A stretch of 64,000 nucleotides of DNA from Gemmatimonadales bacterium (GCA_038228795.1 JBBROY010000019.1:2905-66904); one strand, 5' to 3'. Shown: positions 6,130 through 45,760, counted from the stretch's first letter. The notes: generated by a model not told the origin, from the sequence alone. A program made the numbers and translations.

Positions 6130-6833
6130 CACGTTGCGCTCGCACGCATGAACGCGCCGACCGCCGGCGGACCCGAGCCGATCCCTTCGTCGTGCTTGAA
6201 GTACACGTACGCCTCGGACCAGGGCATCGCCGCGATGCGCCTCGACCACTCGGTCAATGCCGCGTCGTCATAGTCGAAGCGATGCAGTCGCGCGTAGCCC
6301 CATGACGCTGTCGCGATGACGGGTGAGGCGAATTCCGGCTGCTCGGTAATGCAGAGCGCGATGTCCCGCTCCCGCAAGGCGCCGAACACCTCCTCATCGA
6401 ACCAGCTCTCGTGGCGGAACTCGATCGTGTAGCGGCGGCCTTCGGGCAAGGTGTCGATGAACGCGCGCAGCCTGTCGACGTTCTTTTTCAGGCTCGGCGG
6501 AAGCTGAAAAAGGATGGGGCCGAGCCTGCTCGCCAGCGACGATGTCGTCTTGAGCAGAAACTCGAGCGCGCTCGCGCATTCGGGCTTGAGGCGCGCGTGG
6601 TGCGTAATGCGCTGGCTAGCCTTGATCGCGAAGGTGAAGGGATTCTGGACCTGTGACGCCCAGTCCTGCAGTACGTGCTCTTTCGGGAGGCGGTAGAACG
6701 TGTTGTTGATCTCGACCGTCGGGAATTTGCTGGCGTAGAAGCCGAGCATCCCGTCGTCTTTGAGATCGGCGGGGTAGAAAGATCCCTTCCATTCCTTGAA
6801 AGCAAATCCGCTCGTGCCGGCGTGTAGCTTCAT
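6129..6833 (-). CDS. DUF72 (YecE-like) family protein
   Basis: MKLHAGTSGFAFKEWKGSFYP...KFPTVEINNTFYRLP is the typical DUF72 N-terminus. The ATG overlaps the phosphatase stop (ATGA). Confidence 0.8.
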   Translation of the reverse strand: MKLHAGTSGFAFKEWKGSFYPADLKDDGMLGFYASKFPTVEINNTFYRLPKEHVLQDWASQVQNPFTFAIKASQRITHHARLKPECASALEFLLKTTSSLASRLGPILFQLPPSLKKNVDRLRAFIDTLPEGRRYTIEFRHESWFDEEVFGALRERDIALCITEQPEFASPVIATASWGYARLHRFDYDDAALTEWSRRIAAMPWSEAYVYFKHDEGIGSGPPAVGAFMRASAT

Positions 6834-8131: not shown

Positions 8132-8235
8132 CGCCATTGCTCTCGCCTACAATAAAGAGGTAACGTCCGAGCGCAGTGCGAGATGGCGATCTCCCTGTGG
8201 GGTCATCACGGTCGCATCGCTGTCGGAGAGTGCGG

Positions 8236-10569
8236 ATGGTGGAGCGCCGGCTGATCGTGGTCGAGGGCATGGTGCAGGGCGTCGGCTTTCGGCCGTTCGT
8301 GCACGGACTGGCGAACGCGCTCGAGCTCCGTGGATCGGTGCGCAACGCGCCCGCTGGAGTTCTGGTCGACGTCGAGGGTGAGACCGACGCGATCGACCGT
8401 TTTCTCCAGCGGCTGACGACCGACTCGCCTCCACTCGCCGCCATCCACGACGTCGATGTGCGCGGCGCGCCATTGGCCGCTCAGCGCGGATTCACCGTCG
8501 CGGCAAGTGCGACCGGCGGCGCGCGGGCGACACATATTCCGCCCGACATCGCGTCGTGCGACGCGTGCGTGGCCGAACTGTTTGACCCGGCCGACCGCCG
8601 GCATCGTTATCCGTTCATTACCTGCGCGCACTGCGGACCGCGCTTCACGATCGTCACCGATCTGCCCTACGATCGGCCGCGCACCACCATGGCGTCCTTT
8701 CCAATGTGCGACGCATGTCGCGCCGAGTATGAGAATCCGCGCGACCGACGCTTTCACGCGCAGGCGATCGCTTGCTGGGGCTGCGGTCCGTCGCTCAGCC
8801 TGACGGTCGCCGGGTCGCGCGAAACAAGCGCGACGGGCGAGGTCGCGATGAGCGAGGCGGTCACCGCCCTGCGCCGCGGCCGCATCGTCGCCGTGAAGGG
8901 GCTTGGCGGCTATCACCTCGCCTGCAATGCGTCGTCGTCCGCCGCGGTCGCCCGGCTTCGATCGCGCAAGCATCGCGAGGCGAAGCCCTTCGCGATCATG
9001 GTGCGCGATCTCGCGGCCGCCCGAACGCTGTGCGCCGTCAGCGATGCGGAAGCGGCGCTGCTGCAGTCACCCGCTCGTCCGATCGTATTGCTCTTTAAGC
9101 GCGCGGGTTCGAACGATGTCGTGGACGACGTCGCACCGACGCTCCGCCAGTTCGGCGTCATGCTTCCGTACACGCCGCTGCATCATCTGCTGCTGATGGC
9201 GCTCGACGCGCCACTCGTCATGACTAGCGGCAATCTGCGTGACGAACCGATCGCGATCGATGACGATGACGCGCGCTTCCGACTCGAAGGCGTTGCGGAC
9301 CTATTTCTCTCGCACGACCGGCCTATCGCCGCGCGATGCGACGACAGCGTGGCGCGCATCGTGAACGGCCGGCCGGCGATCCTCCGCCGGTCGCGCGGCT
9401 ACGCACCGCAACCGATTGCCCTATCCCTCTCGCTCGTCGCGCCGACCCTCGCCGTTGGCGGGCAGCTCAAGAACAGCTTTAGCATCGGCGACGGAAAGCG
9501 CGCGTGGCCTTCGCAACACATCGGTGACCTCGCCCACACCGACACCTCACGCGCCCTGCACGATGGCATCGATCACTTCACGCGGCTGCTCGGCGTTCGG
9601 CCTCGGGTAATCGCGCACGATTTGCACCCCGACTATCGCTCGACTCGCATCGCCGAGTCGCTGGCGCCGGAATTGGGCGCGAGGCTCATCGCGGTTCAAC
9701 ATCATCACGCGCATGTCGCGGCGTGCATGGCCGAGCACGGTGTGGCGAGCGCGACGATCGGCATCGTGTTCGATGGCGCCGGACTCGGCACCGATGGCGC
9801 GATTTGGGGCGGCGAGTTCATGCTCGTGGAGCTTGGCGAGCGCGCGAGATGCGAGCGACTCGGGTCGCTGCGCTATGTCCCGCTTCCGGGCGGCGACGCG
9901 GCGGCTCGCTCGCCGTGGCGTTCGGCCTGCGCTCATGCCTGGGCCGCCCACGGCGGTGATGCGAGCGGACTCGAGCGACACGCGGCTCTTTCAACCAGCG
10001 ATGGCATCGACGCCGTCGCCTACCGCGCCGTCGCGCAGATGATCCAGCGCGATGTCTCGTGTCCGCGCACGTCCAGCATCGGCCGGCTGTTCGACGCAGC
10101 CGCATCGCTCGCCGGCCTGCGCCACATCTCGCGATTCGAAGGCGACGCCGCGATGGAGCTCGAGGCAATCGCCGACCGCTCGACGACGAGAAGCTATCCG
10201 GTCGACGTTGCCGCGTCGGGCGCGTCGTGGGTGATCGATCCGGCCGCGATCGTTCGCGGGATCATGGACGACGTCGAGCACGGGCGCTCCACCTCCGAGA
10301 TTGCTGGAGCGTTCCACAACGCAATACGGGACCTGGTGGTCGCCGGCGCGGAGGAAGCGCGCCGGGCGACGGGCATCACGCGTGTCGCGCTGTCTGGAGG
10401 CGTTTTTCAGAACGCGCTACTCGCGGAACGCGGCGCCGACGCGCTGCGCGCGCGAGGCTTTGAGGTTCTGTTGCATCGCGTCGTGCCCTGCAACGACGGC
10501 GGCCTCGCGCTCGGTCAGCTCGTGATCGCGGGAACGTCGGACCCTGCGCGGGAGGCCGCATGTGCCTAG
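8236..10569 (+). CDS. hypF: [NiFe]-hydrogenase maturation carbamoyltransferase HypF
   Basis: Acylphosphatase domain VEGMVQGVGFRPFV. Two zinc-finger pairs (CDACVAEL...CAHCGPRF; CDACRAEY...CWGCGP). YrdC-like VAVKGLGGYHLACNA. Kae1-like C-terminal domain. In-frame upstream start at 8176 is possible. Confidence 0.95.
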   Translation: MVERRLIVVEGMVQGVGFRPFVHGLANALELRGSVRNAPAGVLVDVEGETDAIDRFLQRLTTDSPPLAAIHDVDVRGAPLAAQRGFTVAASATGGARATHIPPDIASCDACVAELFDPADRRHRYPFITCAHCGPRFTIVTDLPYDRPRTTMASFPMCDACRAEYENPRDRRFHAQAIACWGCGPSLSLTVAGSRETSATGEVAMSEAVTALRRGRIVAVKGLGGYHLACNASSSAAVARLRSRKHREAKPFAIMVRDLAAARTLCAVSDAEAALLQSPARPIVLLFKRAGSNDVVDDVAPTLRQFGVMLPYTPLHHLLLMALDAPLVMTSGNLRDEPIAIDDDDARFRLEGVADLFLSHDRPIAARCDDSVARIVNGRPAILRRSRGYAPQPIALSLSLVAPTLAVGGQLKNSFSIGDGKRAWPSQHIGDLAHTDTSRALHDGIDHFTRLLGVRPRVIAHDLHPDYRSTRIAESLAPELGARLIAVQHHHAHVAACMAEHGVASATIGIVFDGAGLGTDGAIWGGEFMLVELGERARCERLGSLRYVPLPGGDAAARSPWRSACAHAWAAHGGDASGLERHAALSTSDGIDAVAYRAVAQMIQRDVSCPRTSSIGRLFDAAASLAGLRHISRFEGDAAMELEAIADRSTTRSYPVDVAASGASWVIDPAAIVRGIMDDVEHGRSTSEIAGAFHNAIRDLVVAGAEEARRATGITRVALSGGVFQNALLAERGADALRARGFEVLLHRVVPCNDGGLALGQLVIAGTSDPAREAACA

Positions 10570-10832
10570 GCATTCCGGCGCGGGTGATCGAGTTCGTCGA
10601 CGAGGGCCGGCATCTGGCGAAAGTCGACGTGTCCGGCGTACGACGCGTCGTCAACGTGGGCCTGGTGCTGCCCGACGGGCTCGAGATCGGCGATTGGGTG
10701 TTGCTCCACGTCGGCTTCGCGTTGAGCAAGATCGACGAGGAGGAGGCGCAGCGCACGATCGATTTCCTCAAGGAGCTCGACGGCGAATACGAGCAGGAGA
10801 TCGAGCAGTTGAAGGAGACGCGCATCCAATGA
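10560..10832 (+). CDS. hypC: HypC/HybG/HupF-family hydrogenase chaperone (canonical)
   Basis: N-terminal MCLGIPARVIEF with the essential Cys2. 90 aa. Overlaps the hypF end by 10 nt. Confidence 0.9.
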   Translation: MCLGIPARVIEFVDEGRHLAKVDVSGVRRVVNVGLVLPDGLEIGDWVLLHVGFALSKIDEEEAQRTIDFLKELDGEYEQEIEQLKETRIQ

Positions 10833-11386
10833 GTGCCGTGGTCACGGAGATTCATCCTCACGCACATCTGGCGGCGTTGGCGGAGCGCCGCGTGGAAGCG
10901 GGCGCCGAGGCGGCGACACGCTTCTTCGACGAGGCGGCCGACCGGATCGCCGACGCCTGCTCCGCGATGGCGCGGCGCTTTCAGGGGGGCGCTCGGCTAT
11001 TCGTATTCGGCACGCCGGCGACGGCGAGCGATGCGCACCATGTGGCCGTCGAGTTCGTGCACCCCGTGCTCGTCGGGAAGCGGGCGTTGCCCGCGATTGC
11101 GCTCGACGGCGACGTAGGCGCGGCGCTCGCCACGCTGGCGCGCGCCAATGACATCGCGATCGGCCTGAGCACCGCGCCCGATTCGGCGGTGGACGATGCG
11201 CTCTCGCTCGCGCGCGCGGCGGGCCTGCTCACCATAGGGATCTCGGGCGGCGGCGCGGCGGGCGGCGCGCTGGCGTTCGTCGTTCCGTCGAGCGACGCGA
11301 TGATCGTGCAGGAGGTGCAGGAGACGCTGTACCACGTGTTGTGGGAGCTGGTGCACGTCTCCCTCGACGGGAGCGAGACACGATGA
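10829..11386 (+). CDS. SIS-domain protein, divergent GmhA-like (paralogue 1)
   Basis: VFGTPATASDAHHVAVEFVHP...LPAIAL...IGLSTAPDS...IGISGG...VQETLYHVLWELV follows the GmhA/SIS scaffold, but the GNGGS loop is degenerate. ATGA overlaps at both ends. Confidence 0.7.
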   Translation: MSAVVTEIHPHAHLAALAERRVEAGAEAATRFFDEAADRIADACSAMARRFQGGARLFVFGTPATASDAHHVAVEFVHPVLVGKRALPAIALDGDVGAALATLARANDIAIGLSTAPDSAVDDALSLARAAGLLTIGISGGGAAGGALAFVVPSSDAMIVQEVQETLYHVLWELVHVSLDGSETR

Positions 11387-11619
11387 GCGACTGCACGCCC
11401 GACGCAACGGGACATTGCTCGCTCTGCGGCGACGACGCGATCGAGGTGATGATCGTCAGTGTCGACCGTGCCGCGCGGCTCGCGACGGCGCGCGTGAACG
11501 GCGCGCTGGCGACGGTTGCGCTCGATCTGGTCGACGGCGTGAGCGAAGGCGACATGGTGCTCGTGCATCAAGGCTTTGCGATCGACAGGGTCGAGCGGCA
11601 CAGCGGAGGCGCGCAATGA
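11383..11619 (+). CDS. HypC-family paralogue with a Cys-rich N-terminal extension
   Basis: MSDCTPDATGHCSLCGDDAIEVMIVSVD...GDMVLVHQGFAIDRV has a HypC-like beta-barrel core. The Cys is not at position 2. ATGA overlaps at both ends. Confidence 0.65.
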   Translation: MSDCTPDATGHCSLCGDDAIEVMIVSVDRAARLATARVNGALATVALDLVDGVSEGDMVLVHQGFAIDRVERHSGGAQ

Positions 11620-12311
11620 CGAAGGAGCGCGACTTCGGCCGCGAGATGTATCCGTTCCTACACGCGCGCGACACGACGGCGTCCGCACCGCGCGCGGATG
11701 CCGAGCGGCGCGACGCCGTGCGGGAGTCGACGCGCGAGAAATGCCGTGACGCTATCGCCGTGCGTCGTCAATTGGTTTCCGAGTATCGCGATCAGTTCGC
11801 CGAGACGGCGATCGCGATGGCCGGCGCCTTTGCGCGGGGCGGCAAGCTGCTCGCCTTTGGCAATGGCGGGAGCGCGACGGACGCCGAGGACGCGGCATCC
11901 GATTGCCTGGCGCCTCCGATGGCGGGATGGCGACCGCTGCCGGCGATCTCGCTCACCGGCGACAGCGCGGTCGTCACCGCGATCGCCAACGATGTCGGCG
12001 TGGAGCACATCTTTACGCGCCAACTGATCGCGTTCGGCCAGCGCGGCGACATTGCCCTCGGCTTCTCGACCAGCGGAGGCTCGCCGAACGTGATCTCGGC
12101 GATGAAAGAGGGGAAGCGTCGCGGTCTGATCACCGTCGCGCTCACTGGCGGCGACGGCGGCGCGCTCGCTCGCTCGAGCGATGTCGTCGACTTCTGCTTC
12201 GTGGCGCGGCTCGAGTACATCCCGCGAATTCAAGAAGGGCATGCGACGGCCTGGCACATCCTCCTCGAGCTCGTCCACGCGGTGCTGTCGAGCGGAGAGG
12301 CGGCCGCATGA
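11616..12311 (+). CDS. SIS-domain protein, GmhA (phosphoheptose isomerase)-like (paralogue 2)
   Basis: LLAFGNGGSATDAEDAASD...LPAISLTGDSAVVTAIANDVG...GFSTSGGSPNV...ALTGGDGG...IPRIQEGH follows the GmhA motif series closely. Confidence 0.8.
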   Translation: MTKERDFGREMYPFLHARDTTASAPRADAERRDAVRESTREKCRDAIAVRRQLVSEYRDQFAETAIAMAGAFARGGKLLAFGNGGSATDAEDAASDCLAPPMAGWRPLPAISLTGDSAVVTAIANDVGVEHIFTRQLIAFGQRGDIALGFSTSGGSPNVISAMKEGKRRGLITVALTGGDGGALARSSDVVDFCFVARLEYIPRIQEGHATAWHILLELVHAVLSSGEAAA

Positions 12312-13447
12312 CACTGCGCCACGTGGATGAGTACCGGCGCCCTGAGGACATCCGGCATCTCACCGCCGAGATCGAGCGACTCGCGCGCGGCCGCGAGATC
12401 AAGGTAATGGAGGTCTGCGGCGGCCATACGCACGCGATCTACAAGCACGGACTGCAGGATTTATTGCCGCCGAACGTCGAGCTGGTGCACGGGCCGGGTT
12501 GTCCGGTGTGCGTGATCCCGATGGGCCGCTTGGACGACGCCATGGCCATCGCGCGGACCCCCGGCGTGATCTTCACCACGTTCGGCGACATGATGCGCGT
12601 GCCGAGCTCGCGCGGCAGCTTGCTCGATGCGAAGGCCGAGGGGGCGGACGTGCGATTCGTCTATTCGCCGCTCGATGCGCTGCGGTTGGCGCGCGAGACA
12701 CCCGATCAGCACGTGGTCTTCTTCGCTGTCGGGTTCGAAACGACCGCGCCGTCCACCGCCGCCACGCTGCTCCGCGCGCGCGAAGAAGGGATCGAGAACT
12801 TCTCCGTCTTCTGCAACCACGTGACGATCGTGCCGGCGATCAAAGCCATTCTCGATTCGCCCGGGATGCAGCTTGATGGCTTCATCGGGCCCGGACACGT
12901 GTGCACCATCATCGGACTCGCGCCCTTCCAGTTCATCGCGAGCGACTATCGGCGCCCGATCGTGGTGTCGGGCTTCGAGCCGGCCGACGTACTTCAGTCG
13001 GTCGTGATGCTGCTCGAGCAGCTCAAACTCGGCGAGGCGCGGGTGGAAAATCAGTACGCGCGCGTCGTGCGCCCGGCGGGCAATCGGCGCGCCATGGAAA
13101 TCCTGCTCGAGACGATGGAGCTGCGGCCCTACTTCGAGTGGCGCGGGCTCGGCTTCATCAATCACAGCGCGCTCAAGCTCAGGCCCGAGTTCGAGGCGTG
13201 GGACGCCGAAGCACGATTCGCCGTGCCAGGCGTGCGCGTGACCGATCCTAAGGCATGCCAGTGCGGCGAAGTACTCAAGGGCGTATTGAAGCCGTGGCAA
13301 TGCCGGGTGTTCGGCAGCGCCTGCACACCGGAAACGCCCATCGGCTCGTGCATGGTGTCGCCCGAGGGCGCGTGCGCCGCGTACTTCAACTATGGCCGCT
13401 ATTCACTGCAGAAGAGCGCGCGGCAAGTGGCGGGGGCGTCGTCGTGA
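12308..13447 (+). CDS. hypD: Hydrogenase maturation Fe-S protein HypD
   Basis: MEVCGGHTH, HGPGCPVCV, GFETTAPS and GPGHV motifs. ATGA overlap with the upstream gene. Confidence 0.95.
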   Translation: MTLRHVDEYRRPEDIRHLTAEIERLARGREIKVMEVCGGHTHAIYKHGLQDLLPPNVELVHGPGCPVCVIPMGRLDDAMAIARTPGVIFTTFGDMMRVPSSRGSLLDAKAEGADVRFVYSPLDALRLARETPDQHVVFFAVGFETTAPSTAATLLRAREEGIENFSVFCNHVTIVPAIKAILDSPGMQLDGFIGPGHVCTIIGLAPFQFIASDYRRPIVVSGFEPADVLQSVVMLLEQLKLGEARVENQYARVVRPAGNRRAMEILLETMELRPYFEWRGLGFINHSALKLRPEFEAWDAEARFAVPGVRVTDPKACQCGEVLKGVLKPWQCRVFGSACTPETPIGSCMVSPEGACAAYFNYGRYSLQKSARQVAGASS

Positions 13448-14538
13448 CGGCGCGCGTCGAGTCATCACTCCCCGCGCAGCTCGAGCGGATGGCGCGCGCG
13501 CACGACGCGCGCAAGACCCGTCACGTGCTCAAGGACGAGCGCGTGACCCTGAGCCACGGCGCGGGCGGAAAGGCGAGCCATCAGCTGCTCGAGGGACTGG
13601 TCTTCCCCGCCCTGGCGAGCGGTGCGCTCCTGGCGCAGGACGACGCCGCGGTGCTGGCCATCGGCGACCTGCGGCTTGCCTTCACGACGGATTCCTACGT
13701 CGTCAGTCCGATTTTTTTCCCGGGCGGCGACATCGGCTCGCTGGCCGTGCACGGCACGGTGAACGATTTGGCGATGCAGGGCGCGCGACCGCTCGCGCTT
13801 TCAGTCGCGCTCGTGCTCGAGGAAGGCTTCGAGACCGCGGAGCTCAGACGCGTGCTCGAGTCCATGGCCACGGCGGCGCGCGCCACCAGCGTCGAGATCG
13901 TCACCGGCGACACGAAGGTCGTGCCACGGGGCAAGGCGGACCGGATCTTCATCACCACCGCCGGCGTGGGCATCATTGCGGGCGCCGTGAATTTGTCCGT
14001 GCGCAACGCGCGCCCCGGCGATCGCGTGATCCTGAGCGGCGCGATCGGCGATCACGGCATAGCGGTCATGCTCGCGCGTGAGGCACTGGAGCTGGAGTCG
14101 GAAATTCGGAGCGACTCGGCGCCACTCTCTGGCCTCGTGGTGACGCTCCTGGCCGCGGCGCCCGGTACGCGCGCGCTCAAGGATCCCACGCGCGGCGGCG
14201 TCGCAACGGCCCTGAACGAGATTGCCGAGCAAGCGGGCGTCGGCATTGCGATTGATGAGGATCGCGTTCTGGTGCACGATGCGGTGCGCGGTGCCTGCGA
14301 AATCTTGGGCCTCGATCCGATGCACATTGCGAACGAAGGCAAGCTGATCGCGATTGTGCCGCCGGACCAAGCGGAGGCGGCTCTCGCGGCGATGCGCTCG
14401 CACTCGTTAGGCAGCGAAGCAGCAATCATCGGCGAAGTGACCGATGAGCACGACGGAATGGTAGTGGTGCGCACGGGCATCGGCGGCTCGCGCGTGCTCG
14501 ACATGCTGGTCGGCGACCCGCTGCCCCGCATCTGCTAG
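13444..14538 (+). CDS. hypE: Hydrogenase maturation carbamoyl dehydratase HypE
   Basis: LSHGAGGKAS N-terminal motif, PurM-like fold motifs, C-terminal PLPRIC. GTG start overlaps the hypD stop (GTGA); ATG at 13489 is an alternative. Confidence 0.93.
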   Translation: MTARVESSLPAQLERMARAHDARKTRHVLKDERVTLSHGAGGKASHQLLEGLVFPALASGALLAQDDAAVLAIGDLRLAFTTDSYVVSPIFFPGGDIGSLAVHGTVNDLAMQGARPLALSVALVLEEGFETAELRRVLESMATAARATSVEIVTGDTKVVPRGKADRIFITTAGVGIIAGAVNLSVRNARPGDRVILSGAIGDHGIAVMLAREALELESEIRSDSAPLSGLVVTLLAAAPGTRALKDPTRGGVATALNEIAEQAGVGIAIDEDRVLVHDAVRGACEILGLDPMHIANEGKLIAIVPPDQAEAALAAMRSHSLGSEAAIIGEVTDEHDGMVVVRTGIGGSRVLDMLVGDPLPRIC

Positions 14539-14558: not shown

Positions 14559-15851
14559 ATGGCGACGGCGACAGAGCCAGGCAACATCAGGGGCGGACAA
14601 CCCCCGATCCCCGAGACGATGCCCGAGGAAAAGGCACAGCGGCTTCCACTCGGCCCGCTCAAGACGGTGCACGTCTTCTGGATGGCCGGGATGAGCTGCG
14701 ACGGTTGCACGATCACCGTGGCGGGCGCGACCAATCCCGGTATCGAAGGGCTGCTCACGGGTACCGTGCCCGCCATGCCGAAGGTGATCCTGCACCACCC
14801 GGTCCTTTCAGTGGAAGCGGGCGCCGAGTTCATGCAGTCGTTCAAGGACGCCTACGCTGGCACGCTCGCTGATCCGTACGTCGTCGTGTTCGAGGGCTCG
14901 GTGCCAGACGAACGCATCGCCGCGCGCACCGGAGGCTACTGGTCGGCGATGGGCTCCGAGGCGATCGAGGGCGGGAGCGGCGAGACGCATCTCGTGCCGA
15001 CCGCGGAATGGTTGCACCGTCTCGCGCCCGGCGCCGCGGCGACGATCGCCATCGGCACCTGCGCGACGTGGGGCGGCATCCCGTCGGCCGAAGGGAATCC
15101 CACCGGCGCGATGAGCGTGATGGATTTTCTCGGCAAGCAGTATCGCTCCGCGTTCGGCCTTCCGGTCATCAACATTCCTGGCTGCGCGCCGCAGGGCGAC
15201 AATTTCACCGAGACGGTGTTTGCCGTCCTCCTCTTCCTGCAGGGACTCGGCCCTCTGCCCGCCTTCGATGAGCTTGGCCGCCCGTCGTGGCTGTACGGCG
15301 AAACCGTACATCGCGGATGTACGCGCGCTGGCTACTACGAGGAGGGCGTCTTCGCGCATGAGTACGGCGAGAAGGAATGTCTGGTGGAGATCGGCTGCTG
15401 GGGTCCGGTGGTGAATTGCAACATCGTGAAGCGTGGCGCGATCAACCACATGGGCGGATGCATGGAAGCGGGCGGCATCTGCATCGCCTGCACGATGCCC
15501 GGCTTCCCCGACAAATTCTCGCCGTTCTACAAGGCGCCGCCGGGCGGCATTGTGTCGACGGCTCTGTCGTACAGCGTGGGCAGCGTGATTCGCCGCCTGC
15601 GGCGACTCAGCAACCGCCACGCAAGCCGCGAGCATCGGTGGGATGTCAACAATGATGTGCCGAGCGGGTGGGCCAACCTGCCGGGTGAAACGATCGGCCT
15701 CAAGACGATGGAGTTCTTCTACCAGAAGTGGCAGCATTGGGGCGCGAGAAAACCCGGGCGCCGCCCCGGAGAGGAAGCCCGCTTGTGGGGCGGCAATCGT
15801 CCCGGCAAGCCGAGTGACTACATCGACGACAGCGTGTCGGAGGGCAAATGA
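14559..15851 (+). CDS. [NiFe]-hydrogenase small subunit (no Tat signal, no C-terminal anchor helix)
   Basis: FWMAGMSCDGC, IAIGTCATWGGIPSAEGNPTGA, INIPGCAPQGDN and HRGCTRAGYY...GCWGPVVNC...CIACTMPGFPDKF are the cluster-ligand motifs. AGGAG-like RBS lies upstream. Confidence 0.93.
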   Translation: MATATEPGNIRGGQPPIPETMPEEKAQRLPLGPLKTVHVFWMAGMSCDGCTITVAGATNPGIEGLLTGTVPAMPKVILHHPVLSVEAGAEFMQSFKDAYAGTLADPYVVVFEGSVPDERIAARTGGYWSAMGSEAIEGGSGETHLVPTAEWLHRLAPGAAATIAIGTCATWGGIPSAEGNPTGAMSVMDFLGKQYRSAFGLPVINIPGCAPQGDNFTETVFAVLLFLQGLGPLPAFDELGRPSWLYGETVHRGCTRAGYYEEGVFAHEYGEKECLVEIGCWGPVVNCNIVKRGAINHMGGCMEAGGICIACTMPGFPDKFSPFYKAPPGGIVSTALSYSVGSVIRRLRRLSNRHASREHRWDVNNDVPSGWANLPGETIGLKTMEFFYQKWQHWGARKPGRRPGEEARLWGGNRPGKPSDYIDDSVSEGK

Positions 15852-16141
15852 CCGACGCAGAGCTGTGGGCGTCGTGGCGGCTCTGGATGGGCGTGGCGGC
15901 ACTGATCATCGTGATCGCCGCCGTGCTCCTCATCCTCATCTGGCGCACCGCGCGGGGCATTTACACCGAGGCGCTTCGCGCGCTCGCCGCGGCGGAACGC
16001 ATTCGGCAGAACACGATGCCGATCTGGGCGCTCGAGACGACGAACGAAGTCGCGGGCGGTCTCCTCGAGACGGTCCAGCAGATCGAACAGAAGGGCGGCG
16101 CGCTCGCCGCGGCGCTCGAGTCACACGCTGGCGCACACTGA
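15848..16141 (+). CDS. Hydrogenase-associated single-pass membrane mini-protein, paralogue 1 (97 aa)
   Basis: ATGA overlap with the small-subunit stop. Helix WRLWMGVAALIIVIAAVLLILIW, then RTARGI...RIRQNTMPIWAL. Confidence 0.7.
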   Translation: MTDAELWASWRLWMGVAALIIVIAAVLLILIWRTARGIYTEALRALAAAERIRQNTMPIWALETTNEVAGGLLETVQQIEQKGGALAAALESHAGAH

Positions 16142-16154
16142 CGGAGATCAGACC

Positions 16155-16487
16155 ATGCAACAACCATCGGCCGAGGCGGTCCGCACTATCTGGACGCTTT
16201 CTCTCGTTGTCTTCACCGTCGTGCTCGTCGTCGTCGCGGTGCTGCTCACGTTGATCCTGCGCACGGCGCGCGACATCAAAGGGGGCGTGAGCTTGATCTG
16301 GAACGTGGGACAGCGCATCGCCAACAACACCATACATCTGGCGCTGCTCGCGAAGACCAACGCCGGCGCCACGGCGATCCTCAACTCCGCCATCGGCGTC
16401 ATTGGCGCGACATCGGCCGTACAAGCCCACGCCGAGCAGTGTGCCGGGTGTCCGGCGTGCGTTCTCGGGCCGGGGTGGTCGCGATGA
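16155..16487 (+). CDS. Hydrogenase-associated single-pass membrane mini-protein, paralogue 2 (110 aa) with a C-terminal CxxCxxC
   Basis: GGAG RBS lies 9 nt upstream. Helix IWTLSLVVFTVVLVVVAVLLTLIL, then RTARDI...RIANNTIHLALL. Tail is HAEQCAGCPAC. Confidence 0.7.
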   Translation: MQQPSAEAVRTIWTLSLVVFTVVLVVVAVLLTLILRTARDIKGGVSLIWNVGQRIANNTIHLALLAKTNAGATAILNSAIGVIGATSAVQAHAEQCAGCPACVLGPGWSR

Positions 16488-16801
16488 ATCCGTTCACATT
16501 GTTGGCGCTGCTCTCGCTCGTTGGCGCGGCGGCGCTCTTCATCGCGCTGCTGCTCTTTCTGAACTTGATCACCACTGAGCTGGAGAAGATCGGCGGCGAA
16601 GAGAAGGGGTACGGCGTGCGGGCCAGCTTTCTCTCGAAGATTCGCGTCGGCGTTCGCGCGATCGAGACGCAGACGGGCGCGATCGCTCCGCAGGTGACGA
16701 AGCTCAACGGCACGCTCACGCAGGTGCGCGACGGGCTCGTCGCGATCGACAAGAACCTCGCGGGCGTGATTGCCGCCGTCGTGCGACAGGAGACGACATG
16801 A
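16484..16801 (+). CDS. Hydrogenase-associated single-pass membrane mini-protein, paralogue 3 (105 aa)
   Basis: ATGA overlaps at both ends. Helix FTLLALLSLVGAAALFIALLLFLNLI, then AIETQTGAIAPQVTKLNGTL. Confidence 0.7.
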   Translation: MNPFTLLALLSLVGAAALFIALLLFLNLITTELEKIGGEEKGYGVRASFLSKIRVGVRAIETQTGAIAPQVTKLNGTLTQVRDGLVAIDKNLAGVIAAVVRQETT

Positions 16802-17100
16802 GCGCCGATCTCATGCCCGGCTCGGTCTACATCATCTGGTGGATCGGACTGATCGTCACGCTGGTGATTTTCGTGCCGCTCTCGGTCTATCTGCTGCACC
16901 GCACCTGGGTCGCCGCGCGCTCCATCCAGCAATACGCCGCCGAGACACTGACGGCGGCCGCCGGCATCGCGGGCAACACCCAACACATTCCCGCGCTCGA
17001 CGCGACGATTTCGGTCGGCGGCTCCATGGTCGCCGTCGCCGGAGAGATCGCCGCCAAACTCGAAGCCGCCGGCGGTGTGCTCGCCGACCGCGCGAAGTGA
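16798..17100 (+). CDS. Hydrogenase-associated single-pass membrane mini-protein, paralogue 4 (100 aa)
   Basis: ATGA overlap. Helix VYIIWWIGLIVTLVIFVPLSVYLL, then HRTWVAARSI...GIAGNTQHIPAL. Confidence 0.7.
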   Translation: MSADLMPGSVYIIWWIGLIVTLVIFVPLSVYLLHRTWVAARSIQQYAAETLTAAAGIAGNTQHIPALDATISVGGSMVAVAGEIAAKLEAAGGVLADRAK

Positions 17101-17110
17101 GGACACACCC

Positions 17111-17374
17111 ATGCTCTTGATGCTGACGCTCATCGTCGTCGCTCTCGTCGTGCTCGCGTTGGCCGGCTATCTCATCGCGATAGCGTGGGCTCTGATGGCG
17201 GCCCGGCGCAGTGTGGCCGCCATCGCCGACGGACTCGAAGCAGTGGCCGGCCACACCGCGCCGCTGCCGGACAAGCTCACCACGATCAACGGCGCGCTCA
17301 CGCAGCTCCTCACCGGCCTTCAGGCCGCCGACCGCCACCTCGGGCGCGTCGCCACCGTCTTCAAGCTCGGCTGA
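17111..17374 (+). CDS. Hydrogenase-associated single-pass membrane mini-protein, paralogue 5 (87 aa)
   Basis: Helix MLLMLTLIVVALVVLALAGYLIAIAWAL, then MAARRSV...AVAGHTAPLPDKLTTINGAL. Ends 26 nt before the large-subunit ATG. Confidence 0.65.
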   Translation: MLLMLTLIVVALVVLALAGYLIAIAWALMAARRSVAAIADGLEAVAGHTAPLPDKLTTINGALTQLLTGLQAADRHLGRVATVFKLG

Positions 17375-17400: not shown

Positions 17401-19299
17401 ATGTGCTTCAAGAATCTTCCTGTCGAGTTCGACGCGCAGGGCAAGGCGTTTCTCAAGGACGGCGCCGGGAATCCTTACTCGACCGCGACCGCCGGTCCGC
17501 CCGGCGTTCCCAAGCAGCTGACATCGGAGCGGGTGGCCGAGCTGGTCAAGCGCAACGGACACGTCAAGGATGTCGATTTCGATCCGGTGACGCGCGTCGC
17601 CGGCGCGCTCGCCTTTCACACCGTCGCCGACGTGCGCGAGCGCAAGGTGATCGAAGCGCGCTCCGTCGCGACGCTGTTCCGCGGCTATGAGGTGATCATG
17701 ATCGGCCGCGATCCGCGCGACGCGATCTTCATCACGAGCCGCGCCTGCGGCGTGTGCGGCGGCGTGCACTCGACCTGTTCCGCGCTGGCGATCGAGATGG
17801 CGATCGGTTGCAATCCACCACCGCTCGGCGTGCTCATTCGCAATCTCGCGCTGGCGCTCGAGTTTCTCTACGACAACCCGTTGCACCTGCATCTGCTCGC
17901 CGGCCCCGACTACTCGGCCGCGATCGTCGAGGGGACGAATCCGGGATTGATCGAGCGCGCACGGCACACCGAGGCGAAGCACACCGCGGTGCATGGATAT
18001 AAGACGATTCTCGAATTGATGACCGACCTCAATCCGCTCAGCGGTGGCTTGTATCTCGAGGCGCTGCACATGACGCGCGTGGCGCGCGAAGCCTACGTGC
18101 TCATCTGCGGCAAGTATCCGCATCCGCAGACGATCGTGCCGGGCGGGATGAGCTCGACCATCAACCTGACCGTGATGAACGAGATGTACGTCCGCATGAG
18201 CCAGTTCTTCGATTACGGCAAGAAGATGGCGGGGATCTGGGATGATCTGACCGAGTTCTTTTACGAGGCGGATGAGAAGTACAAGATGGTGGGGGCGCGC
18301 CGCGCCAACATGATCGATACGGGCATCTTCGACCATCCCGACGCGTACGACGCGACGTACAAGAACGCGAGCGAGTGGGGCAATCGCAGGTGGGCGACGC
18401 CGGGCGCGATCGTCGACGGCCAACTCGTCACGACCGATCTGCACAAGATCAACATGGGGCTCGAGGAGTTCGTCGAGCACTCGTACTACGAGCCGTGGAC
18501 TGGCGATGGACAGAAACAGCGCTTCGCAACCGACGAGATCGGGCTGCCGCTCTCGCCCTATCACCCGTGGAACAAGGTGACGAAGCCCAAACCCGGCGCG
18601 CAGAGTTGGAAGGAGAAGTACACGTGGGACACCGCCCCACGGTGGGATCGGCTCGGTATGGAAGCGGGATGCTACGCGCGGCTCTGGAACACGGCTGTCG
18701 CGCGCAAGATGCCGGACAATCCATTCATCGAGTCGACCGGGCATTCGCTCAAGATTCGCTTGCCGCGCGGGAAGCTGCCCGAGATGGAGATCGAGTGGCA
18801 CGTGCCCAAGGTATGGAACGCGTTCGAGCGCAATCGTGCCCGCGCGTACTGCGTGGGCTGGGTCGCGATGACGGCGATGAATCAGTGGATGGCGGCGATG
18901 GAGCGCCTCAAGGATGGAGACACCAAGACGTCGACCAAGTTCGAGATCCCCAAGCGCGGCGAGCAGATGGGCGTCGGCTTCTGGGGCGCCGGTCGCGGAT
19001 ACCTCACGCACCATCTGGTGCTCGATCGCGGCGCGGTCGCCAACTACCAGATCGTCACGCCCTCGACGTGGAACGCGTCGCCGACCGATCGGTGGGGGCA
19101 GCCCGGTCCATACGAGGAGGCGGTGATGAATACGCCGCTCCTCGAGGAGTCGACCGATCCGGCGAAGTTCCGCGGCATCGACATCCTGCGCGCCATTCGT
19201 AGCTTCGACCCATGCATGCCGTGCACGACGCACATTCAGTCGGAGGCGGGTATGATCACGCGCGAGGTCAATACGTGCGCGTGCGGTCTGGACGATTGA
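17401..19299 (+). CDS. [NiFe]-hydrogenase large (catalytic) subunit
   Basis: N-terminal DPVTRVAGAL, L1 motif SRACGVCGGVHS, RGYEVIMIGRDPRD, L2 motif SFDPCMPCTTH followed by a 21-aa C-terminal extension. GGAG RBS lies upstream. Confidence 0.95.
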   Translation: MCFKNLPVEFDAQGKAFLKDGAGNPYSTATAGPPGVPKQLTSERVAELVKRNGHVKDVDFDPVTRVAGALAFHTVADVRERKVIEARSVATLFRGYEVIMIGRDPRDAIFITSRACGVCGGVHSTCSALAIEMAIGCNPPPLGVLIRNLALALEFLYDNPLHLHLLAGPDYSAAIVEGTNPGLIERARHTEAKHTAVHGYKTILELMTDLNPLSGGLYLEALHMTRVAREAYVLICGKYPHPQTIVPGGMSSTINLTVMNEMYVRMSQFFDYGKKMAGIWDDLTEFFYEADEKYKMVGARRANMIDTGIFDHPDAYDATYKNASEWGNRRWATPGAIVDGQLVTTDLHKINMGLEEFVEHSYYEPWTGDGQKQRFATDEIGLPLSPYHPWNKVTKPKPGAQSWKEKYTWDTAPRWDRLGMEAGCYARLWNTAVARKMPDNPFIESTGHSLKIRLPRGKLPEMEIEWHVPKVWNAFERNRARAYCVGWVAMTAMNQWMAAMERLKDGDTKTSTKFEIPKRGEQMGVGFWGAGRGYLTHHLVLDRGAVANYQIVTPSTWNASPTDRWGQPGPYEEAVMNTPLLEESTDPAKFRGIDILRAIRSFDPCMPCTTHIQSEAGMITREVNTCACGLDD

Positions 19300-19303
19300 C
19301 CGC

Positions 19304-19900
19304 ATGGCTCGCCGTACCGTGATGCGCACGGTGATCGGCGGCGTCGGTTATCGCAATCTGCGCGATCACTCGTTAGGCATCATGATGAGCGACGAGCTCG
19401 AGCCGGAAGCGCGCCCGCCGGCGCTGCTGGTCGAAGACTTGAGCTACGGCCCCGTGGCCGTCGGCCAGTGGCTGCTCGATGAGGCGCGCGACGCTCCCGA
19501 AGGACCGATCACGCGCGCGATCTTCATCTCGGCCATCGCGCGGGCAGACGGCCGCCCGCCAGGTACGATGTGCGCCTACCGGTGGGACCGCGTTCTTCCG
19601 TCGCCCGATGAAATTCAACGCTGCGTCACCGATGCGGTGACCGGCGTGATTCTGCTCGACAACACGCTGATCGTCACGGCGTGGATGGGCGCGCTCCCCG
19701 ATGACGTGATCGTGGTCGAAGTCGAGCCGATGGAGCACGCGTTCGGCGATGAGATGAGCGCGTCGGTCGCGGCCGCGTATGCTGAAGCCAAGCCGCTCGT
19801 GATGACGCTCGCGACCGACGTCGCCGCCTCGCGCGCGCTTCCGGTCATGCCCCTGGGCGGAGGCTGGGCGCGTACCGGCGTGTGGAGCCTCGCTCGATGA
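19304..19900 (+). CDS. Divergent HyaD/HybD-like hydrogenase maturation protease family protein
   Basis: MRTVIGGVGYRNLRDHSLG resembles the vlGiGN.l.gDdg.G N-terminus of the endopeptidases. About 198 aa. Starts 4 nt after the large subunit. Confidence 0.55.
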   Translation: MARRTVMRTVIGGVGYRNLRDHSLGIMMSDELEPEARPPALLVEDLSYGPVAVGQWLLDEARDAPEGPITRAIFISAIARADGRPPGTMCAYRWDRVLPSPDEIQRCVTDAVTGVILLDNTLIVTAWMGALPDDVIVVEVEPMEHAFGDEMSASVAAAYAEAKPLVMTLATDVAASRALPVMPLGGGWARTGVWSLAR

Positions 19901-20814
19901 CTGAGGCCGAGCGGGCGCCCGATGCCGATGGCGACTCGGGAGACGTCCTCGCGGAAGTCGAGCAGCTCATCGCCCTGCTCACGGCGCATACCGATCCAAT
20001 CGTCGGCGAGACCGTGACGGCGCTGCTCGACCGCGTCGACGCCGTACACCGTACCGCGCTCGCGCATCTCATGGGCGCCATCCAGTCGATGGCCGGTGAC
20101 GCCTTCGTCAACCGGCTCACCGGCGACCCGGCGATCCGGCTGCTGCTCATGTCATACGACCTGCTCGCCGTGGATCGGCGCACGCTGGCCGAGGAGGCAC
20201 TCGATGCGGTGCGCGGTCACCTCCACGCGCATGGCATCGACGTCGAGCTCGTCGAAGTACTCGGCGGCGTCGTCTCCGTTCGCCTGCACGGGGCGCCGAC
20301 GGACGATCCAGCATATGCGGGCGCGGTGCGAGACATCGGCCAAGCGTTGCAGACAGGGTTCCTTGGCTTTCAGGAGCTCGAGCTGCGCGACGGCAAAGGC
20401 GCGCGGCCGGTGTCGAAAGACTCGACGTTTCTGCCGCGGGAGGCACTGCAGCGGGCGTTTCGGCCGGTGTACTCGGCGATTTGCGCGGCCGCGGAGATTG
20501 CGCCCGGGAGCACTCGGAGCGCGATCGTGAACGGGATGCCCGTGCTGTTGGCAAACGTCGACGGCGAGTTCTACGCTGTTCGCAACGCATGCGGCGATGG
20601 TCCGCTCCCGCTCGACTACAGCACGCTCGACGGCGCCGAGCTCACGTGCAGCTGGCACCGCTGCCGCTACGACATGCGCACCGGCCACCGGTTGGACTAC
20701 CCGGAGGCATCGCAGGATGAGCAGTTGGTCGTGTACCCGGTGCGCGTTCGCGATGGCGTGATCGAAGTCGTGGTCGGCACCGCGCCGGCGAGCGCCAGCG
20801 CGGCGGGCACCTAG
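19897..20814 (+). CDS. NifU-C-like plus Rieske-like two-domain protein (HucE/HhyE-like putative Fe-S electron carrier)
   Basis: HGIDVELVEVLGGVVSVRLHG is NifU-C-like without CxxC. The C-terminal part, FYAVRNACGDGPLPL...LTCSWHRCRYDMRTGH...VYPVRVRDGVIEV, has Rieske/NirD-like fold motifs. ATGA overlap upstream. Confidence 0.6.
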   Translation: MTEAERAPDADGDSGDVLAEVEQLIALLTAHTDPIVGETVTALLDRVDAVHRTALAHLMGAIQSMAGDAFVNRLTGDPAIRLLLMSYDLLAVDRRTLAEEALDAVRGHLHAHGIDVELVEVLGGVVSVRLHGAPTDDPAYAGAVRDIGQALQTGFLGFQELELRDGKGARPVSKDSTFLPREALQRAFRPVYSAICAAAEIAPGSTRSAIVNGMPVLLANVDGEFYAVRNACGDGPLPLDYSTLDGAELTCSWHRCRYDMRTGHRLDYPEASQDEQLVVYPVRVRDGVIEVVVGTAPASASAAGT

Positions 20815-21305
20815 TGCGCACCCTCATCGCAGGTTTCGGCAACGTGCTGCGCGGCGACGATGGCTTCGGAGTCGAGGTGCTTCGGCGGCTCGGGGAGTGC
20901 GGCGTGGCGAGCGACTCGGTCGAGCTGCTCGATGTCGGGACTGGCGGCATCCGCTTGGCGCAGGAGCTGATCAATCCGTACGACCGCCTCATCATCATCG
21001 ACGCGACCACACGGGGAGGCGTGCCGGGAACGGTGTACGTCCTGGCCATCGACGGCGTCGAGGCGGCGCGCGAGATTGACATGCACACCGCGATACCGTC
21101 GGCCGCCCTGTCCGTCGCCAAAGCGTTGGGCGCGCTGCCGCCCGAGATCTTCTTGATTGGATGCGAGCCGGCGGAGGTGGATGATCTCGTGGTTGGGCTG
21201 TCGGCCGCCGTGAGCGTCGCCGCCGATGCGGCGGTGCAACGGGTTCATGAGCTGATGCGGAAGCAGAGTGCGTTTGCGCGAACGGAGGTGAGCAATGAGC
21301 GGTGA
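20814..21305 (+). CDS. Hydrogenase maturation endopeptidase (HyaD/HybD/HupD family)
   Basis: MRTLIAGFGNVLRGDDGFGVEV...LIIIDA...DMHTA...FLIGCEP are canonical protease motifs. GTG start. Confidence 0.88.
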   Translation: MRTLIAGFGNVLRGDDGFGVEVLRRLGECGVASDSVELLDVGTGGIRLAQELINPYDRLIIIDATTRGGVPGTVYVLAIDGVEAAREIDMHTAIPSAALSVAKALGALPPEIFLIGCEPAEVDDLVVGLSAAVSVAADAAVQRVHELMRKQSAFARTEVSNER

Positions 21306-45560: not shown

Positions 45561-45760
45561 GTCGTGTGATACAACTCAGTGACGAGCGTTTCCAATGGGG
45601 TCCAAACCTTCATACCGCGTTTCGCCTCGTAATTTCAGTCGTGAGCGTGATACGCGCGCCGTGCCGGCGGCAGTCGAGACAATGCCTCGAGCGCACCGCG
45701 GCCATGCAGAGCAAGGTAGACGCCACGCGCTCGGAGCGCGCTCGCCCGGCGCTCCCGGCG

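What the first reader, a model, noticed from the sequence alone, without database searches (positions are those of the whole stretch)
10560..12311. Alternating hypC - SIS - hypC-like - SIS module inside the hyp cluster
Seen: two HypC-family genes alternate with two GmhA-like SIS-domain genes, and all four junctions are ATGA overlaps. The first HypC is canonical (MCLGIP). The second has a 14-aa extension with three Cys (C4, C12, C15: MSDCTPDATGHCSLCGDD), so its conserved Cys is not N-terminal. The two SIS proteins are complementary in what they retain. SIS1 keeps DAHHVAVEF but has lost the GNGGS loop (GTPATAS). SIS2 keeps GNGGSATDA and the RIQE-H motif but has DAEDAASD. Established: HypC needs its Cys at position 2 to carry the Fe(CN)2CO unit with HypD, and GmhA is a sedoheptulose-7-P isomerase forming tetramers. 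I believe gmhA-like genes are annotated in some actinobacterial hydrogenase loci without an assigned role; I cannot verify this here. Inference: the SIS pair may form a heteromer acting in cofactor or maturation chemistry (sugar-phosphate or CO/CN-ligand related), each partnered with one HypC paralogue.
Basis: partly seen in the sequence, partly recalled or inferred. Interest (0 to 1): 0.6.

Follow-up and report, generated by a model that had tools for sequence, protein, structure and literature searches.

The report
Split GmhA-like hydrogenase maturation module
Inside the assembly operon of an air-tolerant nickel-iron hydrogenase, three tightly coupled genes encode two complementary halves of a sugar-phosphate-isomerase-like protein and a cysteine-rich relative of the iron chaperone HypC. 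They almost certainly act as one complex in building the enzyme's metal centre, but its chemical job has not been studied.

Summary
The window holds hypF-hypC1-SIS1-hypC2-SIS2-hypD-hypE, with four ATGA overlaps, upstream of a group-1l-type [NiFe]-hydrogenase in a Gemmatimonadota genome.

- **Complementarity is conserved.** Across 120 homologues each, SIS1 keeps the GmhA metal ligands His64, Glu68, Gln175 and His183 but has lost both sugar-phosphate loops. SIS2 keeps the loops, Gln175 and His183 but carries Asp, Asp and Cys at positions 64, 68 and 69.
- **A composite site is predicted.** In solved GmhA, Glu and His come from one chain, and Gln and the substrate loops from the neighbour. A SIS1:SIS2 pair would therefore rebuild one complete site.
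- **Fusions link the parts.** SIS1~SIS2, SIS1~HypC2, HypC2~SIS2, SIS1~HypC2~SIS2 and HypC1~HypC2 fusions all exist.
- **Ancestry.** Cupriavidus, Afipia, Bradyrhizobium and Sphingopyxis carry one unsplit, fully equipped SIS gene at the same operon position.
- **Distribution.** SIS1 occurs in 7 of 121 Gemmatimonadota genomes, always inside hyp clusters.

The literature notes "gmhA" in group 1h/2a operons without assigning a role. The heteromer idea is supported; "each SIS pairs with one HypC" is not. The chemistry remains unknown.

The parts
8176..10569 (+). hypF (carbamoyltransferase), overlaps hypC1 by 10 nt
   Evidence: Pfam HypF_C_2, Sua5, zf-HYPF and acylphosphatase
10560..10832 (+). hypC1, canonical HypC (MCLGIP; Cys2)
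   Evidence: PF01455 at 90.5 bits; TIGR00074 at 79.7 bits, above its cut-off of 48
10829..11386 (+). SIS1: GmhA-derived SIS protein. It keeps His71/Glu75/Gln161/His169 (= GmhA H64/E68/Q175/H183). It has lost the GNGGS and STSG loops and the ND helix.
11383..11619 (+). hypC2: HypC-like OB-fold protein with a 14-aa N-terminal extension. It carries C4, H11, C12 and C15 (HCSLCGDD), and H62 matches HypC His51. It has no C-terminal helix.
11616..12311 (+). SIS2: GmhA-like SIS protein. It keeps GNGGS (82-86), N125/D126, STSGGS (151-156), Q206 and H214. It has D92/D96/C97 in place of H64/E68/F69.
12308..13447 (+). hypD
   Evidence: PF01924 at 516 bits
13444..14538 (+). hypE
   Evidence: AIRS and AIRS_C; 364-aa product matched in related loci
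14559..15851 (+). hydrogenase small subunit (HylS-like, 430 aa)
   Evidence: Oxidored_q6 and NiFe_hyd_SSU_C
15848..17374 (+). five short ORFs, each with one N-terminal hydrophobic helix (HylTM1-5-like)
   Evidence: the same five ORFs are called in L018; group 1l description
17401..19299 (+). hydrogenase large subunit (HylL-like, 632 aa), 42% identical to C. necator group 1h HhyL
19304..19900 (+). conserved 198-aa protein of unknown function
   Evidence: no Pfam hit; conserved in L011, L018 and L041
19882..20814 (+). NifU/Rieske protein (HylE/HhyE-like)
20814..21305 (+). maturation endopeptidase (HupD/HycI family)

Best explanation
The four genes are the ordinary iron chaperone HypC (HypC1) plus a three-protein accessory module, SIS1-HypC2-SIS2. 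The module is inserted at the HypC/HypD step of [NiFe]-cofactor assembly for an oxygen-tolerant, group-1l-type hydrogenase.

SIS1 and SIS2 are ancient paralogues of a hyp-linked GmhA-like enzyme that is still a single gene in Cupriavidus, Afipia, Bradyrhizobium and Sphingopyxis.

They most likely assemble as a heteromer, probably a GmhA-like dimer of dimers. Each SIS1:SIS2 interface would rebuild one complete GmhA-type site:
- SIS1 supplies metal ligands His71, Glu75 and His169.
- SIS2 supplies Gln206 and both sugar-phosphate loops (GNGGS, STSGGS, N125/D126).

The reciprocal site is remodelled to Asp92/Asp96/Cys97/His214 of SIS2 plus Gln161 of SIS1. In the one mycobacterial pair examined it is abolished.

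HypC2 is a HypC OB-fold whose iron-binding Cys lies inside an H-C-x-x-C-G-D motif. It docks on this heteromer and on HypC1, as fusions to each partner indicate. It probably passes a metal or a ligand-bearing intermediate on to HypC1/HypD.

Shown here: gene anatomy, the conserved residue pattern, the fusions, synteny and phylogeny. Inferred: physical heteromer, composite site, and a role in maturation. Speculative: the chemical reaction.
For: 1. Composite-site geometry from solved GmhA. Zn is bound by H64, E68, Q175 and H183 (PMC5705639). Glu lies on helix a2, Gln on a6' of the neighbouring chain, and His on a6 (PMC4697000). A modelled M. tuberculosis GmhA-S7P complex built on PDB 2X3Y places the substrate on the N53/G55/S121-S126/Q173 residues of one monomer, with Glu66 coming from the other (PMC7705670).
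2. Conservation in 120 SIS1 and 120 SIS2 homologues. SIS1 has H64, E68, F69, Q175, E176 and H183 in 120/120, with degenerate loops. SIS2 has N55, G57 and S58 in 116/120, T124 and S125 in 116/120, S123 in 109/120, Q175 in 120/120 and H183 in 119/120. Its H64->D, E68->D and F69->C changes occur in 116/120. The same pattern holds in 17 loci.
3. In the M. intracellulare pair only the composite site survives. The SIS2 partner has T/L/Y at positions 64/68/183, and the SIS1 domain has lost Q175.
4. Fusions exist between all partners: SIS1~SIS2 (Thermus P0138; P0185, P0157, P0236, P0237, P0247), SIS1~HypC2 (P0137, P0074, P0261), HypC2~SIS2 (P0291), SIS1~HypC2~SIS2 (P0267) and HypC1~HypC2 (P0307, P0364, P0387).
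5. Synteny. The module sits between or beside hypC/hypD/hypE/hypF in every locus. SIS1 is present in 7 of 121 Gemmatimonadota genomes, and all 7 copies lie in hyp clusters.
6. SIS1 and SIS2 are each monophyletic (100/100 and 95/94 support), with matching 1l-type and 1h-type sub-clades.
7. The genome has a separate canonical GmhA with all residues intact.
8. The HypC2 model has a HypC OB core (rmsd about 1 A to 3VYT/2Z1C). H62 is invariant, and C12/C15 are invariant in 14 homologues.
9. Expression. GmhA protein levels rise together with Hyp proteins in A. ferrooxidans. MSMEG_2706 'gmhA' is listed among the Hhy-cluster genes in M. smegmatis microarray tables.
Against: - No direct evidence of a physical complex, of metal or sugar-phosphate binding, or of any effect on hydrogenase activity.
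- The structure tool folds single chains only. The model of a natural SIS1~SIS2 fusion (pTM 0.78, from 5 sequences) shows two GmhA-like domains, but inter-domain contacts could not be measured.
- SIS2's D/D/C replacements are themselves conserved, so the 'second' site may be functional rather than vestigial, and the simple one-site picture may be incomplete.
- One group-1l locus (L018) has the SIS fusion with no HypC2, so HypC2 is dispensable in some lineages.
- In this sample, 42 of the 49 Gemmatimonadota genomes with a [NiFe]-hydrogenase have no SIS1 and none has HypX, so the module is not a general requirement.
- Three genomes with another hydrogenase type distantly related to 1h/1l (27-30% identity to HylL) also lack the module.
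Confidence: 0.65

Rival explanations
1. Non-catalytic scaffold. The SIS heteromer has lost enzymatic function, like the GmhA homologue DiaA, which binds DnaA. It would only hold HypC1, HypC2 and HypD/E together during cofactor assembly.
For: DiaA is among the PDB and NCBIfam matches of both SIS proteins. SIS1 has lost both substrate loops. Fusions to HypC-like domains show a protein-binding role.
Against: A scaffold would not need the four metal ligands and all phosphate-loop residues to be invariant across more than 100 homologues and several phyla. Nor would the losses need to be so exactly complementary. The unsplit proteobacterial form keeps the complete GmhA catalytic set.
Confidence: 0.15
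2. Metabolic sensor. The module binds a sugar phosphate to couple hydrogenase maturation to carbon or energy status, without contributing to cofactor chemistry.
For: Phosphate loops are retained in SIS2. Group 1h/1l/2a hydrogenases are starvation-induced, as shown by M. smegmatis expression data. SIS domains serve as sensor modules in RpiR/MurR regulators, which appear as weak NCBIfam hits.
Against: There is no DNA-binding or signalling domain. The module is translationally coupled inside the structural maturation genes and fused to HypC-like domains. The retained catalytic Glu/His/Gln are not needed for sensing.
Confidence: 0.08
3. Ordinary heptose biosynthesis genes (sedoheptulose-7-P isomerase) that merely sit in the operon, with SIS1 a decaying duplicate.
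For: The best PDB and NCBIfam matches are GmhA. Databases label relatives as D-sedoheptulose-7-phosphate isomerase.
Against: Scores are far below the GmhA equivalog cut-offs: 126 and 49 bits against 209. A complete canonical GmhA lies elsewhere in the genome. None of the annotated loci lists another heptose-pathway gene next to the module. SIS1 is an old, monophyletic family under selection with invariant residues, not a decaying copy. It is found only in hyp clusters.
Confidence: 0.03

Closest known systems
GmhA, D-sedoheptulose-7-phosphate isomerase (SIS_2 class; e.g. B. pseudomallei 2X3Y/2XBL, E. coli 2I2W/2I22)
   Same: Same fold: the SIS1~SIS2 fusion model matches GmhA chains at TM 0.8-0.88 per domain. 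Same Zn-ligand positions and phosphate loops, but shared out over two chains.
   Different: GmhA is a homotetramer with four identical sites. Here there are two non-identical chains, each missing half of the site. NCBIfam scores are well below the equivalog cut-off. The module is encoded only in hyp operons and is sometimes fused to HypC-like domains. The genome has its own true GmhA.
Hyp-linked single 'gmhA'/SIS gene of group 1h/2a (and the Afipia) hydrogenase operons (e.g. C. necator H16 pHG1 H16_RS31885; M. smegmatis MSMEG_2706)
   Same: Same operon position, hypF-hypC-SIS-hypD-hypE. Same N-terminal YPFLH segment as SIS2. Noted in papers without a function.
   Different: The proteobacterial form is one chain with the full residue set and no HypC2. 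Here the protein is split into two complementary paralogues plus a Cys-rich HypC-like partner.
HypC/HybG/HupF chaperones (e.g. T. kodakarensis HypC 2Z1C, HypCD 3VYR)
   Same: HypC2 has the OB-fold core (rmsd about 1 A over 53-55 columns) and the conserved His (H62, equivalent to His51). A Cys aligns with Cys2.
   Different: The Cys is internal (Cys15) within H-C-x-x-C-G-D, so the free N-terminal cysteine of HypC cannot exist. There is no C-terminal helix. TIGR00074 scores 29.4 against a cut-off of 48.
HypX (aerobic CO-ligand synthase of C. necator)
   Same: An accessory maturation factor associated with oxygen-tolerant hydrogenases and encoded in hyp operons.
   Different: No sequence or fold relation. 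HypX is absent from this genome and from all 121 Gemmatimonadota genomes sampled. C. necator pHG1 carries both, in different operons.

Membership tests
GmhA (sedoheptulose-7-P isomerase, TIGR00441) | Score above the curated equivalog cut-off (209.45 bits) | tested here: not met
   SIS2 scores 126.1 bits and SIS1 49.1 bits
GmhA (sedoheptulose-7-P isomerase, TIGR00441) | All four Zn ligands (H64, E68, Q175, H183) in one chain | tested here: not met
   SIS1 has 4 of 4. SIS2 has 2 of 4 (D92 and D96 replace His and Glu)
GmhA (sedoheptulose-7-P isomerase, TIGR00441) | Substrate loops GNGGS and S-T-S-G-x-S plus N97/D98 in the same chain as the ligands | tested here: not met
   SIS1 has lost them and SIS2 keeps them. 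The full set exists only across the two chains
GmhA (sedoheptulose-7-P isomerase, TIGR00441) | Homotetramer with isomerase activity on S7P | not testable with these tools
   Needs biochemistry or a multimer model
SIS_2 domain (PF13580) | Pfam gathering score of 27 bits | tested here: met
   SIS1 scores 28.7 and SIS2 70.9 bits
HypC/HybG/HupF (PF01455 / TIGR00074) | OB-fold domain; Pfam cut-off of 28.5 bits | tested here: met
   HypC1 scores 90.5 and HypC2 41.4 bits. The HypC2 model matches HypC structures
HypC/HybG/HupF (PF01455 / TIGR00074) | Cysteine at position 2, which becomes the N-terminal residue after Met removal | tested here: not met
   Met by HypC1 (MCLGIP). Not met by HypC2, where the aligned Cys is residue 15. 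No start codon precedes it, and the upstream residues are conserved and internal in the fusions
HypC/HybG/HupF (PF01455 / TIGR00074) | TIGR00074 subfamily cut-off of 48 bits | tested here: not met
   HypC1 scores 79.7 (met). HypC2 scores 29.4 (not met)
Hyp-linked GmhA-like accessory genes of group 1h/2a operons (literature 'gmhA') | SIS_2 gene embedded among hypF/C/D/E of an oxygen-tolerant uptake hydrogenase | tested here: met
Group 1l [NiFe]-hydrogenase (Hyl) | Five short single-helix ORFs between the small and large subunit genes, plus a Rieske-type HylE and a protease | tested here: met
Group 1l [NiFe]-hydrogenase (Hyl) | Phylogenetic placement of the large subunit in the 1l clade | not tested
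   Only 42% identity to C. necator group 1h HhyL was measured. No reference tree was built

The most novel reading that the evidence does not exclude
The SIS1:SIS2 composite site is a working metalloenzyme, possibly with Fe(II) in place of Zn. It would convert a ketose or aldose phosphate and hand a one-carbon fragment or a ligated iron to the Cys/His motif of HypC2. That would give air-living bacteria without HypX their own route to the Fe-CO (or Fe-ligand) unit of the [NiFe] cofactor.
Probability: 0.12. Interest if true: 0.9.

Novelty: new variant of a known kind. Interest (0 to 1): 0.6.

Why it matters
Group 1h, 1l and 2a hydrogenases let soil bacteria live on atmospheric hydrogen and form the main biological sink for H2. 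How their Fe(CN)2CO centre is built in air, and especially where the CO comes from in organisms without HypX, is unresolved.

This module is a conserved, hyp-embedded candidate enzyme with a clear, testable architecture: a split composite site tethered to a HypC-like carrier. It is present in genetically tractable strains (M. smegmatis, C. necator H16).

It is also a clean natural case of a homo-oligomeric enzyme with paired sites becoming an obligate heteromer in which each chain keeps half of the site.

Tried and rejected
- **Genome-contig scan with the HypC2 profile**. The exact peptide patterns found only 7 loci, all but one labelled Gemmatimonadota (one record says only 'bacterium'), so the scan gave no cross-phylum count.
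- **tblastn of HypC2 against plasmids**. No match; the protein is too short and divergent. The mycobacterial fusion found only itself.
- **HypX anti-correlation test**. HypX is absent from all 121 Gemmatimonadota genomes, including 42 with hydrogenases but no SIS1. The test is therefore uninformative here and argues against the module being a universal HypX substitute. C. necator pHG1 holds both.
- **Deep alignment for folding the fusion** (A3). MAFFT stacked the single SIS1 sequences on the SIS2 half, so it was discarded. The fold used only 5 fusion sequences (A4).
- **Fold search of the fusion model**. It confirmed GmhA-like domains but cannot show interface contacts.
- **Literature**. No functional study of the hyp-linked SIS genes was found.
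- **Rejected idea: HypC2's start is mis-called and its Cys is really N-terminal.** No start codon precedes Cys15. The upstream H-C-x-L motif is conserved and is internal in the fusion proteins.

Full report
**1. What is in the window**

Reading the DNA gives a plus-strand operon:
- hypF, 8176-10569
- hypC1, 10560-10832
- SIS1, 10829-11386
- hypC2, 11383-11619
- SIS2, 11616-12311
- hypD, 12308-13447
- hypE, 13444-14538

The four junctions from hypC1 to hypD are ATGA overlaps, at 10829, 11383, 11616 and 12308. The hypF/hypC1 junction is a 10-nt overlap.

Pfam and NCBIfam confirm the families. HypC1 is canonical: MCLGIP, with TIGR00074 at 79.7 bits. HypC2 passes Pfam HupF_HypC (41.4 bits) but not TIGR00074 (29.4 against a cut-off of 48). 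Both SIS proteins hit SIS_2. GmhA is their best named relative, but they score far below the equivalog cut-off (126 and 49 bits against 209).

Downstream genes:
- a 430-aa small subunit
- five short ORFs, each with one N-terminal hydrophobic helix
- a 632-aa large subunit
- a conserved 198-aa protein
- a NifU/Rieske protein
- the maturation protease

This is the gene organisation published for group 1l [NiFe]-hydrogenases: HylS, HylTM1-5, HylL, HylE, HupD (bioRxiv 10.1101/2020.08.06.239558). The large subunit is 42% identical to the C. necator group 1h enzyme. Its placement in the 1l clade was not tested by a tree.

The closest relatives are Gemmatimonadota MAGs.

**2. The complementary pattern is real and conserved**

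I aligned both proteins to B. pseudomallei GmhA. I then scored 120 homologues of each and every SIS domain in 17 loci.

| Feature (GmhA numbering) | SIS1 | SIS2 |
|---|---|---|
| H64, E68 | kept, 120/120 | replaced by Asp, Asp in 116/120 |
| F69 | kept, 120/120 | replaced by Cys in 116/120 |
| Q175, E176 | kept, 120/120 | kept, 120/120 |
| H183 | kept, 120/120 | kept, 119/120 |
| GNGGS loop | lost | kept (N55/G57/S58 in 116/120) |
| S-T-S-G loop | lost | kept (S123 in 109/120; T124/S125 in 116/120) |
| N97/D98 helix | lost | kept (N97 117/120, D98 116/120) |

In window numbering:
- SIS1: His71, Glu75, Gln161, His169.
- SIS2: GNGGS 82-86, Asp92, Asp96, Cys97, Asn125/Asp126, STSGGS 151-156, Gln206, His214.

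It keeps all four metal ligands.

**3. Why this implies a heteromer with a composite site**

Three published results on GmhA matter here:
- Zn is bound by H64, E68, Q175 and H183. All four are conserved and needed for activity (PMC5705639).
- The site is built from helices a2/a6 of one subunit and a2'/a6' of another. Glu lies on a2, Gln on a6' of the partner chain, and His on a6 (PMC4697000).
- In a model of the M. tuberculosis enzyme with S7P and Zn, built on PDB 2X3Y, the substrate is held by N53, G55, S121-S126 and Q173 of one monomer. Glu66 comes from the other (PMC7705670).

So His/Glu/His belong to one chain, and Gln plus the phosphate loops belong to the neighbour. SIS1 retains exactly the first set and SIS2 exactly the second. 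A SIS1:SIS2 interface would rebuild one complete GmhA-type site.

The reciprocal site would consist of SIS2 Asp/Asp/Cys/His plus SIS1 Gln, next to SIS1's dead loops.

The M. intracellulare pair is the sharpest natural test. The partner SIS has Thr/Leu/Tyr at positions 64/68/183, and the SIS1 domain has lost Gln175. Only the predicted composite site remains.

GmhA already shows half-of-sites behaviour between paired sites. This makes such a split easy to understand. The heteromer and the composite site are inference, not observation.

**4. Fusion proteins tie all four parts together**

| Fusion | Examples |
|---|---|
| SIS1~SIS2 | Thermus thermophilus pTHTHE1601 (392 aa); five metagenomic clusters of 386-405 aa |
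| SIS1~HypC2 | M. intracellulare plasmid (236 aa); P0074; P0261 |
| HypC2~SIS2 | P0291 |
| SIS1~HypC2~SIS2 | P0267 (479 aa), same domain order as the window's genes |
| HypC1~HypC2 | P0307, P0364, P0387 |

A profile of HypC2-like proteins finds 227 clusters (at 50% identity) with E <= 1e-10 among 1.84 billion representatives.

A model of one natural SIS1~SIS2 fusion has pTM 0.78 and mean pLDDT 77.6, from only five sequences. Each half matches GmhA chains at TM 0.8-0.88. Contacts between the halves could not be read out.

**5. HypC2**

Fourteen homologues share an invariant C12-x-L-C15-G-D motif and L-V-H62-Q-G-F-A-I. Cys15 aligns with HypC Cys2, and His62 with the conserved HypC histidine.

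The model has a confident OB core (pLDDT about 95 over residues 20-70). It superposes on T. kodakarensis HypC at about 1 A. It has no C-terminal helix, and the N-terminal 19 residues are less certain.

The Cys cannot be N-terminal. No start codon precedes it, and the upstream motif is conserved and internal in the fusions. HypC2 is therefore HypC-like in fold, but it fails a defining feature of the family.

**6. Distribution and ancestry**

Proteobacteria carry a single SIS gene with the complete GmhA residue set at the same place, hypF-hypC-SIS-hypD-hypE:
- C. necator pHG1, group 1h operon
- Afipia carboxidovorans pHCG3
- Bradyrhizobium and Sphingopyxis operons that also encode an NHL-repeat protein, as in the group 2a operons described in the Frankia paper

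In a tree, SIS1 (100/100) and SIS2 (95/94, with the mycobacterial partner as sister) are each monophyletic. They include the Thermus and Mycobacterium members, and both show the same 1l-type and 1h-type sub-clades. The split is therefore old, and the two chains have diversified together.

Gene order varies:
- Nine Gemmatimonadota group-1l loci, including the window, have the window's quartet.
- One 1l locus has hypC-[SIS1~SIS2]-hypD with no HypC2.
- Group-1h loci and Thermus have hypC1-hypC2-hypD-hypE-[SIS1~SIS2]-hypF.

So the alternation is a local arrangement, not a pairing rule.

Tally over 121 Gemmatimonadota genomes:
- 49 have a [NiFe] large subunit.
- 7 have SIS1, and every copy lies among hyp genes.
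- Five of those 7 carry a 1h- or 1l-type large subunit on the same contig. The other two are on contigs under 6 kb.
- About 26 genomes with a classical, high-scoring group-1 enzyme lack SIS1.
- Three genomes with another hydrogenase type distantly related to 1h/1l (27-30% identity to HylL) also lack it.

The window's genome has only these two HypC genes. It also has a separate, fully canonical GmhA on another contig.

**7. What the literature knows**

[quoted passage not shown] That paper also describes hypF-hypC-hypothetical-gmhA-hypE-hypC-hypD.
- An acidobacterial survey marks a putative gmhA in 1h clusters (PMC5900883).
- A neighbourhood analysis lists a SIS cluster next to hydrogenases (PMC12727194).
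- GmhA protein levels rise with Hyp proteins in A. ferrooxidans (PMC7735108).
- MSMEG_2706 is annotated gmhA in the M. smegmatis Hhy cluster (PMC5445863).

I found no paper that assigns a function or describes the split pair or the Cys-rich HypC paralogue. Six of the eight literature searches run were aimed at this.

Earlier notes of this scan describe the same module in other genomes. I treated them as leads.

**8. Function**

Best supported is an accessory complex of the Fe(CN)2CO stage of maturation for oxygen-tolerant uptake hydrogenases. It would have one GmhA-type metal/sugar-phosphate site per SIS1:SIS2 pair and a HypC-like carrier docked to it.

The reaction is unknown. A HypX-independent source of the CO ligand is attractive, because HypX is absent from this genome. 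The evidence is weak for three reasons:
- HypX is absent from all 121 sampled genomes of the phylum.
- Forty-two of the hydrogenase-bearing genomes among them also lack SIS1.
- C. necator has both HypX and the SIS gene, in different operons.

The rival readings are a DiaA-like scaffold, a sugar-phosphate sensor, and hitch-hiking heptose genes. All are less consistent with the invariant, complementary catalytic residues.

**9. Verdict**

Noticed in passing
whole genome of the window (G000); also G097: No HypA (PF01155) and no HypB were detected in this 99.9%-complete genome. HypB was also not detected in G097, the other genome sampled that carries a group-1l locus with this module. Five Gemmatimonadota genomes with group 1h or other hydrogenases all have HypB (positive controls). 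Group-1l clusters here may lack the standard nickel-insertion pair.
   Followed up: partly
window 15848-17374: Five short ORFs (97-120 aa) lie between the small and large subunit genes. Each has one N-terminal hydrophobic helix, matching the HylTM1-5 genes described for group 1l hydrogenases.
   Followed up: partly
window 19304-19900: A conserved 198-aa protein with no Pfam match follows the large subunit. It is also present after HylL in L011, L018 and L041 (46-54% identity).
   Followed up: no
121 Gemmatimonadota genomes: 49 of 121 genomes encode a [NiFe]-hydrogenase large subunit, and none has a HypX homologue at E <= 1e-20.
   Followed up: partly
window 37164-45575 (minus strand): A very long open frame of about 2804 aa with high third-position GC. 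It was not examined.
   Followed up: no
window 2759-4738 (+) and 4837-6249 (-): Two large ORFs (659 and 470 aa) upstream of the hyp cluster have no Pfam match.
   Followed up: no
L016 (Thermus thermophilus pTHTHE1601) 9542-9802: A glutaredoxin-like 'Uxx-star' (seleno)protein gene directly follows the SIS1~SIS2 fusion gene and precedes hypF. An acidobacterial survey also marks a glutaredoxin in group 1h clusters.
   Followed up: no
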